Source: a virus
Strand: one strand, 5' to 3'
Length of the DNA stretch: 64,000 nucleotides
Virus record (IMG/VR): IMGVR_UViG_3300027902_000008
Location: 1 to 64,000 of that record
In this document: positions 19,283 to 41,531 of the stretch, piece by piece
Numbering within the stretch: the stretch's first letter is position 1
Layout: the number at the start of each line of letters is the position of its first letter
Translations under genes and position numbers: made by a program
The notes under the pieces: model-generated
Database searches by the model: none
Told to the model about the DNA's origin: nothing
Seen by the model: only the letters and a program-made list of their open reading frames with translations

Positions 19283-19288
19283 AAGAAT

Positions 19289-19337
19289 ACGCCCATAGGT
19301 TCCGAGGTAGTTTGACCGCTTATGGGCGTTTCTTTTT
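19289..19337 (+). terminator. Rho-independent terminator closing the structural operon
   Basis: ACGCCCATA...TATGGGCGT stem followed by TTCTTTTT. Confidence 0.7.
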
Positions 19338-19580
19338 GGCACCGCCCTGTTTTAAGCCCTTCTTTGCCTCCTATTTGCCCCGCAGAGCCAAAATTCTCTA
19401 AAAATCAAAGCCCTCTATGACCTTTTTGAAAACGCCTGTAAACGCAAATTAGAGCCGAATTTCCCCTTTTTAACCCTTGCCAAAGGGGTAAGAAGAGAAA
19501 TCAGGCAAAACCGAACCTGACAGCGTCGGGAAATGACCTATTTGCCAAAACTGTCTTAATGTTGGAATATGATAAAATTA

Positions 19581-19609
19581 TTGACAATAATATAATGAAA
19601 TGGTATATT
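19581..19609 (+). promoter_or_regulatory. Sigma70-type promoter
   Basis: TTGACA, 17-nt spacer, TATATT with extended -10 TG; AT-rich upstream. Confidence 0.8.
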
Positions 19610-19615
19610 TATTAT

Positions 19616-20196
19616 AGAAATATAAAGATGATATATCCGCCCTGTGTGGAGGTTCTTTGAAAAAGAAAGGTTAGGAGTAAGTAAGGGGAAAAGCCCCTGA
19701 AGCGAGGCAGGTAAAACATCGCCCTGTGTGAGAGTCCCTGCTGAGTAGCAAAGGAGTTCCTGAGTGCTGGCATAGAACCAGAGGAAGGACAGAACGGATG
19801 AGTAGGAGAGAAACCGAAAGATTACTTTGCGAAATACCCTTGAAAGCCGATAACCATAAGACCAATTCCGATGACAAGGATAGGGGCGGTTAAAACCTGC
19901 CGAATGGTTCAAAACAATAAAGTCCTTTAGACTTGCTACGAAAGCAGACTTCTAAGCGGTAGCACGAGTAGGCTGGTATTCCAATCTTAATTGCCTGTAA
20001 ATATAGCCAATTATGGCTTTGAGCCTTAGAGCTCTCAAAAACAGGCTTATATTAAGGAAGCGAATACTGTAAATGCAGAAATGCGAAACTCTGTAATCCA
20101 AAAGAGGTATGCATTATAGTTGAAGTGGCACCGAAACAACATAGATTTGTGGAAAGCCACCAATGACACAAATGAACTTACCCATATTACAGAGTT
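19616..20196 (+). ncRNA. Candidate large structured ncRNA (~580 nt)
   Basis: No + strand ORF, GC-richer than its flanks, many nested helices, immediately downstream of a consensus promoter and bounded 3' by a ribozyme cleavage site. Confidence 0.6.
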
Positions 20197-20234
20197 AGCA
20201 GGAACTGGCTATTCCTGCTCTGATGAGCGAGCCA
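20082..20234 (+). ncRNA. Type II hammerhead ribozyme with loop I pseudoknot and large stem III insertion
   Basis: Core GAAA at 20085-88; stem III ACTCTGTAAT/ATTACAGAGT; GUU cleavage triplet 20194-96; stem I AGCAGGAA/TTCCTGCT; CTGATGA at 20220-26; short stem II; loop TGGCT pairs with AGCCA (20230-34). Confidence 0.8.
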
Positions 20235-20527
20235 AAAAAATGAGGTGAAAATGAGAAAATATAGACCTGATTTAAACTTTTGGCAGTTGTTAAAGCTTGC
20301 AGATAAAGGCGACAAAAGAGCACAGAGAGAAATTAAGAGAATAGAGAAATCAAAAGGAAAGGAGGCGGTATGACAGTATCTAAGGCAATATCTCAACTGG
20401 AAAAAGACCTTAAAATTTGTATGAAGAGAGGTTGGATTCCAGAGTATACAGACGAGAAGTTGCACGGCATTGCAAAAAGTATAATTTACAGCGAAAAAAG
20501 GTATATGAGAAAGGGGGCGAGAAAGAA

Positions 20528-20926: not shown

Positions 20927-21175
20927 ATGAAAATCAAGGTTGCAAGGCTTTACAAATTAAGCGGTGATAAACCGCTTAAAGCATTAGTGGACATCTCTCT
21001 TGATGATAAGTTTATTGTTAAGGGATTGAGAGTTATTGAAGGAAAGAAAGGGTTATTTGTATCTATGCCAAAAGAAAAAGGTGTAGATAAAAGGTGGTAT
21101 GACACGGTTACGATTACGGACATAACCACAAAGAAAGAGATTGAAAAAGCAATATTGGAAGTTTACGCAAAATAA
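20927..21175 (+). CDS. spoVG: SpoVG family nucleic-acid-binding protein
   Basis: LKALVDISLDDKFIVKGLRVIEGKKGLFVSMP is the SpoVG signature. Confidence 0.9.
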   Translation: MKIKVARLYKLSGDKPLKALVDISLDDKFIVKGLRVIEGKKGLFVSMPKEKGVDKRWYDTVTITDITTKKEIEKAILEVYAK

Positions 21176-41502: not shown

Positions 41503-41531
41503 TTGACAAAAATATAAAAATGATATATTAT
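41503..41531 (+). promoter_or_regulatory. Sigma70-type promoter for the replication module
   Basis: TTGACA, 17 nt, TATTAT in an intergenic gap. Confidence 0.7.

What the first reader, a model, noticed from the sequence alone, without database searches (positions are those of the whole stretch)
19616..20196. Large ornate ncRNA candidate with its own promoter and a ribozyme-defined 3' end
Seen: about 580 nt without a + strand ORF in an otherwise gene-dense genome, starting just after a consensus promoter. Nested helices: ATCCG..CTGT/ACAG..CGGAT enclosing ~19635-19799; TTCTTT/AAAGAA; AGGGG/CCCCT; GTCC/GGAC; TTCCT/AGGAA; TTAGA/TCTAA; GTATTC/GAATAC enclosing CTTAAT/ATTAAG and GCCTGT/ACAGGC. There is also a long-range GGCAGGT (~19706)/ACCTGCC (~19895) pairing. 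Established: phages carry large ncRNAs of unknown function of this size class (ROOL, GOLLD). I cannot assign it to one, so it may be a new class.
Basis: partly seen in the sequence, partly recalled or inferred. Interest (0 to 1): 0.75.

Follow-up and report, generated by a model that had tools for sequence, protein, structure and literature searches.

The report
Phage leader RNA with boxA and hammerhead
A 0.58-kb protein-free stretch at the start of an uncultured phage's early genes begins with the hairpin-plus-boxA signal that bacteria put before ribosomal RNA genes and ends in a self-cutting hammerhead ribozyme; its middle has no detectable relatives and no proven fold, so the claim of a new ornate RNA class remains open.

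Summary
The transcription unit is real on sequence grounds. The + strand has no ORF from 19283 to 20250. A near-consensus extended -10 promoter sits at 19581-19609. A genuine type II hammerhead (20082-20234) should cut after U20196, 54 nt before the first early gene.

New here: 20 nt after the predicted start lies a 5-bp hairpin, followed at once by GGUUCUUUGAAAA. This is the Firmicutes-type rrn boxA (NusB site). In IMG/VR the same promoter-hairpin-box module occurs at least 119 times, against 16 for a reversed-box control. It mostly heads phage non-coding RNA genes: GOLLD, ROOL, manA RNA, tRNA arrays and tmRNA.

The hammerhead is atypical, with a 108-nt stem III against 13-34 nt in 89 relatives.

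The "ornate fold" is not shown. MFE z is -0.8 for the body, and the listed helices are at chance level. There is no Rfam, GOLLD or ROOL match, and no homologue in 13 related phage loci or any collection searched, so covariation cannot be tested. Bona fide GOLLD 3' halves score equally poorly on z, so this does not refute structure.

Best reading: an antitermination-headed, ribozyme-released untranslated early RNA whose body has an unknown role. This scan has noted similar promoter-leader-hammerhead layouts in other phages. No transcription data could be obtained.

The parts
19581..19609 (+). Sigma-70/sigma-A type promoter: TTGACA (19581-86), 17-nt spacer, TG at -15/-14, TATATT (19604-09). The predicted transcription start is near 19616.
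   Evidence: only exact match to the extended pattern in the window. Relatives L004 and L005 have a promoter at the syntenic place. The start site is inferred.
19636..19650 (+). 5' hairpin UCCGC-CCUGU-GUGGA (5 bp, -5.0 kcal/mol). It ends 1 nt before the box.
   Evidence: Present in the MFE and centroid folds. It sits in the same position as the hairpin before boxA in B. subtilis rrn leaders (PMC13753749) and in most of the 83 distinct phage leaders.
19651..19663 (+). boxA-like element GGUUCUUUGAAAA, the putative NusB-S10 loading site for rrn-type antitermination.
   Evidence: Matches 11 of 13 positions of the B. subtilis consensus AUGAUCUUUGAAA. The exact 12-mer occurs once in the 93-kb genome and not at all in 10 other phage genomes. 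The promoter+box pattern gives at least 119 stretches in IMG/VR against 16 for the control. Binding is inferred.
19664..20081 (+). Body of the untranslated RNA. It is GC-enriched and purine-rich, with no homologue and no significant fold. It holds a second copy of CGCCCTGTGTG (19720-30; the first copy, 19638-48, lies in the 5' hairpin) and a 31-aa ORF (19798-19893).
20082..20234 (+). Type II hammerhead. Stem II is UGC 20082-84 paired with GCG 20227-29. GAA is at 20085-87. Stem III is 20088-97 paired with 20186-95 and closes an 88-nt rod-like insert (20098-20185). The cleavage triplet is GUU, with the cut after U20196. Stem I is 20197-204 paired with 20212-219. CUGAUGA is at 20220-26. Loop I UGGCU (20206-10) forms a pseudoknot with the tail AGCCA (20230-34).
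   Evidence: (I7). The consensus features are from Perreault et al. 2011.
20243..20373 (+). GAGGUG ribosome-binding site and the first early ORF (ATG 20251, 40 aa). After cleavage the message would begin with a 5'-OH and the stem I hairpin, 54 nt upstream of the start codon.
   Evidence: The effect of processing on the message is inferred.

Best explanation
This is the untranslated head of the phage's early operon, built from three recognisable modules around an orphan body.

Proposed sequence of events:
1. Host RNA polymerase starts at the strong promoter (19581-19609).
2. Twenty nucleotides in, the nascent RNA forms a small hairpin followed at once by a Firmicutes-type boxA (GGUUCUUUGAAAA). 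As in rRNA operon leaders, this would load NusB-S10 with NusG/NusA onto the polymerase. The polymerase could then cross about 0.6 kb of ribosome-free RNA, and probably the operon beyond it, without Rho-dependent termination.
3. After about 420 nt of GC-enriched, non-coding body, a type II hammerhead folds and cuts between U20196 and A20197.

Products:
- An RNA of about 581 nt with a 2',3'-cyclic phosphate, whose 3' end is buried in the ribozyme's unusually long (108-nt) stem III rod.
- The early mRNA, which starts with a 5'-OH and the stem I hairpin/pseudoknot 54 nt before the first start codon.

Shown by sequence: the ORF-free stretch, the promoter, the hairpin+box, and all hammerhead core and tertiary elements.

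Inferred: the transcription start, Nus factor loading, cleavage in vivo, and stability of the two products.

My odds: hammerhead processing about 0.85; functional boxA about 0.6; the body having a job of its own as a released RNA about 0.4.
For: - ORF-free in every + frame under any stop reassignment. No family hits for the minus-strand ORFs. No pseudogene signal by tblastx. The 31-aa ORF has no homologue among 1.84 billion representatives.
- The promoter is unique in the window.
- Hammerhead: the 3' half matches a 19-base pattern found in 105 phage stretches (my estimate is about 1e-5 chance matches per genome of this size). GAAAC plus a 10-bp stem III abuts the GUU triplet exactly. The loop I/tail pseudoknot and short stem II fit the published type II consensus. 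The domain has z -2.93.
- boxA: matches the B. subtilis rrn leader layout and consensus, for which NusB binding was shown (PMC13753749). The exact 12-mer is unique in the genome and absent from 10 other phage genomes. Promoter+box occurs at least 119 times against 16 for the control. A hairpin ends 0-4 nt before the box in most of 83 distinct cases and covaries.
- Such leaders head untranslated RNAs: GOLLD in 45 of 83, also ROOL, manA RNA, tRNA arrays and tmRNA.
- One other boxA leader (L238) is followed by three CUGAUGAG sites that look, by eye, like type II hammerheads.
- Precedent: the mapped 5' end of the halovirus HF2 early transcript lies at a hammerhead site.
Against:
- The Rfam Hammerhead_II score is 20.2 bits, below the gathering score of 37. 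Rfam's alignment also uses a different CGAAAC (20132) from the one I favour.
- The nearest-neighbour MFE of the ribozyme domain prefers a competing fold by about 6 kcal/mol, with the pseudoknot not counted.
- The box can also pair with the following AAGAA as a weak hairpin, so it could be merely that.
- I recognised the boxA match after reading the sequence, so it is post hoc. More than half of the IMG/VR enrichment comes from one family (GOLLD), so those counts are not independent.
- The host is unknown, so its own boxA could not be compared.
- The leader is purine-rich and G>C, which makes it a poor Rho substrate anyway.
- The closest relatives have no box, no hammerhead and no similar leader, so none of this is conserved in the lineage.
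Confidence: 0.55

Rival explanations
1. One reading: the 580-nt product is a stand-alone, intricately folded trans-acting RNA of a new class, comparable to GOLLD or ROOL. The promoter, boxA and hammerhead serve only to make and release it.
For: - GC content is in the top 0.6% of genome windows, in a non-coding stretch of an AT-rich genome.
- The boxA leader type mostly heads phage ncRNA genes, including GOLLD and ROOL.
- The 3' end would be protected inside an 11-bp-closed 108-nt rod, unlike the 13-34 nt stem III of 89 other type II hammerheads.
- The weak z-score is not decisive, because GOLLD 3' halves give -0.15 to -2.3.
- GAAA is about twofold over-represented.
Against: - Body z is -0.79, and no local window is significant. 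GOLLD 5' halves (-2.1 to -5.4) and the analogous leader in phage L051 (-3.55) are clearly structured.
- There is no homologue in relatives, in 105 hammerhead loci, in 83 boxA leaders or in prokaryote genomes, so there is no class and no covariation.
- The element is absent from the syntenic slot of the closest relatives.
Confidence: 0.25
2. The body is functionless filler. A promoter-boxA-hammerhead cassette, or pieces of one, was acquired or expanded by recombination at a variable early-promoter slot, and the sequence between the modules is drifting.
For: - The slot is variable. L004 has about 230 nt of AT-rich leader. L005 has an unrelated leader of about 340 nt (z -1.08). L127 has converging genes there.
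- A degenerate second copy of the promoter spacer and -10 region lies at 19618-36. A degenerate second copy of the hairpin-box segment lies at 19717-45. Both point to local duplication.
- There is no fold signal and no conservation.
Against: - Phage genomes are compact, and 0.4 kb of filler under the strongest promoter is costly.
- GC enrichment is the opposite of what drift in an AT-rich genome would give.
- The hammerhead's stem III rod and all core bases are intact.
Confidence: 0.12
3. The stretch is partly coding or acts as DNA. Either the 31-aa ORF (19798-19893), which sits in the least-folded part behind an AGGA/GAGG-like site, is a leader peptide, or the two CGCCCTGTGTG copies 82 bp apart are operator sites for a regulator of the early promoter.
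For: - The ORF with a possible weak ribosome-binding site lies in the windows with z > 0.
- The 11-mer repeat occurs only here in the genome, and a related CGCCCTGTTTT lies 295 bp upstream.
Against: - The peptide has no homologue among 1.84 billion representatives.
- The spacing from the ribosome-binding site is poor (9-13 nt).
- One repeat copy forms the 5' hairpin, so the repeat is more simply a duplicated hairpin-box unit.
- No DNA-binding partner is identified.
Confidence: 0.08

Closest known systems
Type II hammerhead ribozymes of phages and prophages (Rfam RF02276; Perreault et al. 2011, PMC3088659)
   Same: Same permuted order: GAAA, stem III hairpin, GUH, stem I hairpin, CUGAUGA, open stem II. 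All core bases are present. Stem II is 3 bp. There is a 5-bp pseudoknot between loop I (UGGCU) and the tail after stem II (AGCCA). It sits in an intergenic position just before a gene.
   Different: Stem III spans 108 nt (an 88-nt rod-like insert) against 13-34 nt in 89 IMG/VR examples. This drops the Rfam score to 20.2 bits, below the cut-off of 37. The triplet is GUU rather than the usual GUC (4 against 79 of 96). It ends a 0.58-kb untranslated leader rather than separating two genes.
Hammerhead (HHphage) in the early transcript of haloarchaeal viruses HF1/HF2
   Same: The ribozyme sits just upstream of the first gene of an early polycistronic transcript. The mapped 5' end of that transcript coincides with the cleavage site. 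This is the same logic of defining the mRNA 5' end by self-cleavage.
   Different: The virus lineage, host domain and hammerhead variant are all unrelated. The HF2 ribozyme lies 13 nt before the start codon, against 54 nt here. No boxA and no long GC-rich leader are described there.
rrn operon leader: 5' hairpin + boxA, NusB-S10-dependent antitermination complex (E. coli rrnTAC; B. subtilis leader, PMC13753749)
   Same: A small hairpin at the transcript's 5' end is followed immediately by a U-rich box. The box matches 11 of 13 positions of the B. subtilis consensus AUGAUCUUUGAAA, including the full UCUUUGAAA core. It heads a long untranslated transcript.
   Different: It lies in a phage early operon, not before rRNA. 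No boxC or leader-spacer processing stalk was recognised. The leader is removed by a ribozyme rather than by RNase III. Binding and antitermination are untested.
GOLLD (RF02032) and ROOL (RF03087), large phage-borne RNAs
   Same: Similar size class and phage-borne. GOLLD genes in 45 of 83 distinct IMG/VR leaders, and one ROOL gene, start with the same promoter-hairpin-GUUCUUUGAAAA module. A 12-mer, AGGAGTAAGTAA, follows the box both here and in a subset of GOLLD genes.
   Different: There is no match to either Rfam model even at E up to 10, to a 993-column profile of 35 GOLLD-type genes, to a GOLLD 3'-half profile, or to a covariance model of the GOLLD 5' module. No tRNA lies nearby. The 3' end is made by a hammerhead. 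There is no fold signal.

Membership tests
Type II hammerhead ribozyme | Conserved core: C3-U-G-A-U-G-A9, G12-A-A14, A15.1-U16.1 pair, cleavage triplet N-U-H | tested here: met
   CUGAUGA at 20220-26, GAA at 20085-87, A20088-U20195, C20089-G20194, and the triplet GUU with H17 = U20196.
Type II hammerhead ribozyme | Stems I and III closed by loops and stem II open (the permuted order) | tested here: met
   Stem I is 8 bp with a 7-nt loop. Stem III is 10 bp and closes an 88-nt insert (I7). Stem II is formed by 20082-84 with 20227-29 (G-C, C-G, G-U).
Type II hammerhead ribozyme | Pseudoknot between loop I and the tail 3' of stem II | tested here: met
   UGGCU (20206-10) is perfectly complementary to AGCCA (20230-34). 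The same pair of motifs occurs in 105 IMG/VR stretches and is described in PMC3088659.
Type II hammerhead ribozyme | Rfam RF02276 gathering score (37 bits) | tested here: not met
   The score is 20.2 bits, E = 0.35 on 1.3 kb and 0.006 on the genome. The model pays for the long stem III insert and picks an internal CGAAAC. I treat this as an atypical member, not a non-member.
Type II hammerhead ribozyme | Self-cleavage | not testable with these tools
   Needs an in vitro transcription and cleavage assay or end mapping.
rrn-type boxA antitermination leader | boxA sequence matching the host-clade consensus | tested here: met
   AGGUUCUUUGAAA matches 11 of 13 positions of the B. subtilis consensus AUGAUCUUUGAAA. 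The exact GTTCTTTGAAAA recurs after phage promoters at least 119 times against 16 for the control. The host itself is unknown.
rrn-type boxA antitermination leader | Small hairpin immediately 5' of the box, near the transcript's 5' end | tested here: met
   The hairpin at 19636-50 ends 1 nt before the box and starts about 20 nt after the predicted start. The same spacing (0-4 nt) is seen in most of the 83 distinct leaders.
rrn-type boxA antitermination leader | NusB-S10 binding and terminator read-through | not testable with these tools
   Biochemical and reporter assays are required.
GOLLD RNA | Match to the conserved 3' half (Rfam RF02032) or to the family's 5' region | tested here: not met
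   No hit at the gathering score or at E up to 10. nhmmer profiles gave no hit in the genome. Covariance model R1 of the 5' module gave no hit on 19600-19800.
ROOL RNA | Match to Rfam RF03087 | tested here: not met
   No hit at the gathering score or at E up to 10, while the model finds ROOL in L201 at 185 bits.
New class of large structured RNA | At least a second, diverged member with compensatory base changes | tested here: not met
   No homologue was found in the phage database, in 13 related loci, in hammerhead loci, in boxA leaders, or by a hammerhead pattern scan of prokaryote genomes.

The most novel reading that the evidence does not exclude
The 0.58-kb product is the first seen member of a further kind of large phage non-coding RNA. 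Like GOLLD and ROOL, it would be made under rrn-type (boxA/Nus) antitermination, but it would be released and 3'-capped by a hammerhead with an extended stem III. More broadly, hairpin+boxA would then be a general, so far undescribed signature of phage non-coding RNA genes, usable to find new ones.
Probability: 0.25. Interest if true: 0.7.

Novelty: new variant of a known kind. Interest (0 to 1): 0.45.

Why it matters
If the reading holds, a phage joins two host-independent RNA devices at the head of its early operon. A borrowed rRNA-style antitermination signal lets the polymerase run through untranslated RNA. A ribozyme then trims that RNA off the message.

This gives testable roles for phage hammerheads: defining the mRNA 5' end and releasing a capped RNA.

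The side observation may matter more. The same hairpin+boxA module heads most GOLLD genes, one ROOL gene, manA RNA, and tRNA and tmRNA arrays in phage contigs. I found no paper linking GOLLD with boxA. If this holds, it says how these enigmatic RNAs are transcribed, and it gives a simple sequence handle for finding further phage non-coding RNAs.

The specific claim of a new ornate RNA class cannot be judged until a second member or probing data exist.

Tried and rejected
**Searches for a known family or a homologue of the leader**
- Rfam at gathering score and at E up to 10 returned only the sub-threshold hammerhead. There was no GOLLD, ROOL, RNase P, intron, riboswitch or tmRNA hit.
- blastn against 50,697 phage records found nothing.
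- Relatives were collected through tail-fibre and 1172-aa protein alignments (L004-L012, L125-L128). nhmmer and blastn found no similarity to the leader. Their whole records hold no RF02276 hit and no DNA match.
- Single-protein scans with the 178-aa neighbour and the ligase found no close relatives.
- Leaders upstream of other type II hammerheads (L051, L105, L036/L111, L032) share only the ribozyme. Those phages are unrelated to this one.
- A scan for two CGCCCTGTGTG copies hit only collagen-like coding repeats.
- A scan of prokaryote genomes with a hammerhead pattern carrying this stem II gave 3 chance hits inside genes.

**Alternative readings tested and dropped**
- Pseudogene: tblastx found nothing.
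- CsrA-type sponge: GGA motifs are not enriched.
- GOLLD homology of the body: rejected by two profiles and one covariance model.
- A loose boxA regex in the other hammerhead leaders was suggestive for L032 and L051 only. I did not rely on it.

Full report
**Setting**

The window is the first 64 kb of a 92,940-bp IMG/VR phage record that CheckV rates complete. Its GC content is 35.8%, and every credible gene is on the + strand. Upstream of the finding lie tail and fibre genes. Downstream lie small early-type genes, a SpoVG homologue, an ATP-dependent DNA ligase and a Cas4-like nuclease. The finding therefore sits at the boundary between the end of the structural block and the start of a replication/early block.

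**Checking the observation**

- From the stop of the 178-aa gene (19282) to the ATG at 20251 there is no + strand ORF of note. All three frames carry many TAA, TAG and TGA codons, so recoding cannot rescue a frame.
- Minus-strand ORFs of 118 and 115 aa match no Pfam or PHROG family. They are expected on the pyrimidine-rich strand.
- tblastx against all collected relatives and the rest of the genome shows no decayed gene.
- The promoter (TTGACA, 17 nt, TG-n-TATATT at 19581-19609) scores 11 of 12 with an extended -10. It is the only exact match to that pattern in the window. Promoter-like sites in general are not enriched in the next 20 kb.

**The hammerhead**

Rfam's Hammerhead_II model gives 20.2 bits, below the cut-off of 37. 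Its alignment uses an internal CGAAAC at 20132.

The convincing fold uses CGAAAC at 20084-89:
- Stem II: G20227-C20084, C-G, G-U.
- Stem III: a perfect 10-bp helix (20088-97 with 20186-95), part of the 11-nt inverted repeat I7.
- Cleavage triplet: GUU, with the cut after U20196.
- Stem I: 8 bp (20197-204 with 20212-219), with the loop CUGGCUA.
- Core: CUGAUGA at 20220-26.
- Tail: AGCCA at 20230-34, fully complementary to loop I UGGCU.

That loop I/tail pseudoknot and a 2-3 bp stem II are exactly the type II consensus of Perreault et al. 2011.

A 19-base pattern for the 3' half (TGGCT-N6-12-CTGATGAG-N1-3-AGCCAA) finds 105 stretches in IMG/VR. I estimate about 1e-5 chance matches per genome of this size.

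In 89 non-redundant examples, stem III spans 13-34 nt. Here it spans 108 nt. The ribozyme is therefore genuine but atypical, and the long insert is probably why it falls below the Rfam threshold. The ribozyme domain folds better than shuffles (z -2.93). The nearest-neighbour MFE prefers a competitor by about 6 kcal/mol when the pseudoknot is ignored.

**The body**

The fold of 19616-20083 is indistinguishable from shuffles: z is -0.79, and 20 of 100 shuffles fold as well. Sliding 120-nt windows give z from -1.6 to +1.3.

Controls:
- The analogous leader of an unrelated 93-kb phage (L051) gives z -3.55.
- GOLLD 5' halves give -2.1 to -5.4.
- The conserved, pseudoknot-rich GOLLD 3' halves give only -0.15 to -2.3.

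A poor z-score therefore weakens the claim of an ornate fold but does not exclude it.

In favour of function, the body's GC content (43.4%) is in the top 0.6% of genome windows.

No homologue could be found. The closest relatives (50-70% protein identity, syntenic through the 178-aa gene) carry something different at the same slot:
- L004/L125: a 380-nt AT-rich gap holding a promoter-like site.
- L005: a promoter with an unrelated leader of about 340 nt (z -1.08).
- L127: converging genes.

None of the relatives has a hammerhead. Covariation, the decisive test, cannot be run.

**The new element: hairpin plus boxA**

Twenty nucleotides after the predicted start lies the hairpin UCCGC-CCUGU-GUGGA (19636-50). 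It is followed at once by GGUUCUUUGAAAA.

A 2026 study reports that B. subtilis rrn operons begin with a small 5' hairpin. Immediately after it comes a boxA-like sequence, consensus AUGAUCUUUGAAA, and the study shows by NMR that this sequence binds NusB (PMC13753749). The phage sequence matches 11 of 13 positions, including the whole UCUUUGAAA core.

The 12-mer GTTCTTTGAAAA is also the nested primer used for the mycoplasma 16S-23S spacer (PMC3019172). That this spacer site is boxA is my own knowledge, not stated in that paper.

The exact 12-mer occurs once in the 93-kb genome. It does not occur in ten other phage genomes, where one-mismatch hits are at control level.

The same pattern with the box reversed gave 16. 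Of 83 distinct leaders, most have a stable hairpin ending 0-4 nt before the box. In the largest group this hairpin covaries: TCGG/CCGA, CAGG/CCTG, CAGT/ACTG, TTGG/CCAA.

**What those leaders head**

| Downstream feature | Loci |
|---|---|
| GOLLD, conserved half about 480 nt downstream on the same strand | 45 of 83 distinct leaders; 42 of 67 with enough sequence |
| ROOL, starting at the box | L201 |
| manA RNA | L184 |
| tRNA arrays | L179, L223, L235, L246, L252 |
| tmRNA | L260 |
| Ribosome-binding site and gene directly | L205, L245, L262 |
| Three CUGAUGAG sites that look like type II hammerheads by eye (not model-scored) | L238 |

The module therefore marks mostly untranslated phage transcripts, which is what an anti-Rho, rrn-type device would be for.

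Two caveats apply. GOLLD alone supplies over half the counts, so they are not independent. I also recognised the motif after reading the sequence. In the searchable library no paper joins GOLLD with boxA.

**Is the body GOLLD- or ROOL-like?**

No. These tests all fail to match:
- The Rfam models.
- A 993-column profile of 35 GOLLD-type genes.
- A GOLLD 3'-half profile.
- A covariance model of the GOLLD 5' module (R1).

Only the box and a following 12-mer (AGGAGTAAGTAA) are shared. I leave that 12-mer unexplained.

**Other readings**

- The 31-aa ORF in the least-folded part has no homologue among 1.84 billion representatives.
- GGA motifs are not enriched, which argues against a CsrA sponge.
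- The exact 11-mer CGCCCTGTGTG occurs twice, 82 nt apart, and nowhere else in the genome. One copy is the 5' hairpin. The second is followed by a degenerate box-like GUCCCUG. I read this as a local duplication of the hairpin-box unit, though operator sites cannot be excluded.
- Positions 19618-36 repeat the spacer and -10 region of the promoter at 41.5 kb. This looks like a decayed second promoter.

**Conclusion**

The finding is a real and unusual transcription unit. It is made of a strong promoter, an rrn-like hairpin+boxA, an orphan GC-rich untranslated body, and an atypical type II hammerhead placed to separate that RNA from the early message.

This scan has noted similar promoter-leader-hammerhead layouts in other uncultured phages (e1-5752558, e1-5895986, e1-5910376, e1-5356096), so the layout is recurrent. 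I did not check those notes.

Whether the body is an ornate RNA of a new class is undecided, and on present evidence it is the less likely reading.

No expression data could be obtained.

Noticed in passing
IMG/VR loci L154-L272 (e.g. L202:1355-2301, L154:4210-5162, L201:4572-5243 minus strand): A promoter, a small covarying hairpin and GTTCTTTGAAAA (rrn-type boxA) head most GOLLD genes found here (45 of 83 distinct leaders). They also head one ROOL gene, a manA RNA, several tRNA arrays and a tmRNA. I found no paper linking GOLLD with boxA. This could be a general signature of phage non-coding RNA genes.
   Followed up: partly
window 19283-19580: The stretch between the late-gene stop and the promoter folds better than shuffles on the + strand (z -3.35 at 19360-19479 and -3.36 at 19440-19559). 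It holds paired short repeats (CCTATTTGCC x2, GCCAAAAYTSTCT x2, ATGACCTWTTTG x2). A terminator-like hairpin sits on the minus strand (19521-19500). It may be a regulatory or end region, or a small antisense RNA.
   Followed up: partly
window 19618-19636 and 41510-41528: There is a 19-nt near-identity (18 of 19) between the start of the leader and the spacer and -10 region of a second TTGACA promoter at 41504. This suggests a decayed tandem copy of the promoter just downstream of the active one.
   Followed up: partly
window 19664-19685 vs L178, L187, L200, L217, L265, L270: The 12-mer AGGAGTAAGTAA follows the box by 11 nt here and by about 19 nt in a subset of GOLLD genes. The rest of the sequences do not align (covariance model R1 is negative). 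This is unexplained.
   Followed up: partly
window 20927-21175: The phage encodes a full-length SpoVG homologue (Pfam PF04026, E = 3.5e-20), a nucleic-acid-binding regulator. It lies 0.7 kb downstream of the ribozyme in the same operon.
   Followed up: no
L051:6134-6640 (IMGVR_UViG_3300029288_000120, 93 kb, unrelated phage): This locus has the same layout with a clearly structured leader. About 430 nt (z -3.55) run into a type II hammerhead whose loop I (CUGGCUA) is identical to the one here, followed by a ribosome-binding site and a gene. A boxA-like UGAUGUUUGAAA sits near the start of the leader.
   Followed up: partly
L238 (IMGVR contig, minus strand), +373, +808 and +1175 nt after its boxA: One boxA-headed phage transcript carries three CUGAUGAG sites about 400 nt apart that look like type II hammerheads by eye. 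They were not scored with a ribozyme model. If real, antitermination and ribozyme processing are combined in one operon.
   Followed up: no
L005:12688-12856 minus strand: There is a weak, sub-threshold cobalamin-riboswitch-like match (19.3 bits against a cut-off of 31.5, E = 0.049) in the GC-rich gap of the closest complete relative. It lies upstream of that phage's early promoter. It is probably chance.
   Followed up: no
window 20098-20185: The 88-nt insert in hammerhead stem III is a rod of short helices (GGUA/UACC, CAUU/AAUG, GUGGC/GCCAC). It contains a second CCGAAAC. It could be a protein or ligand handle that controls cleavage, or a 3'-end protector.
   Followed up: partly
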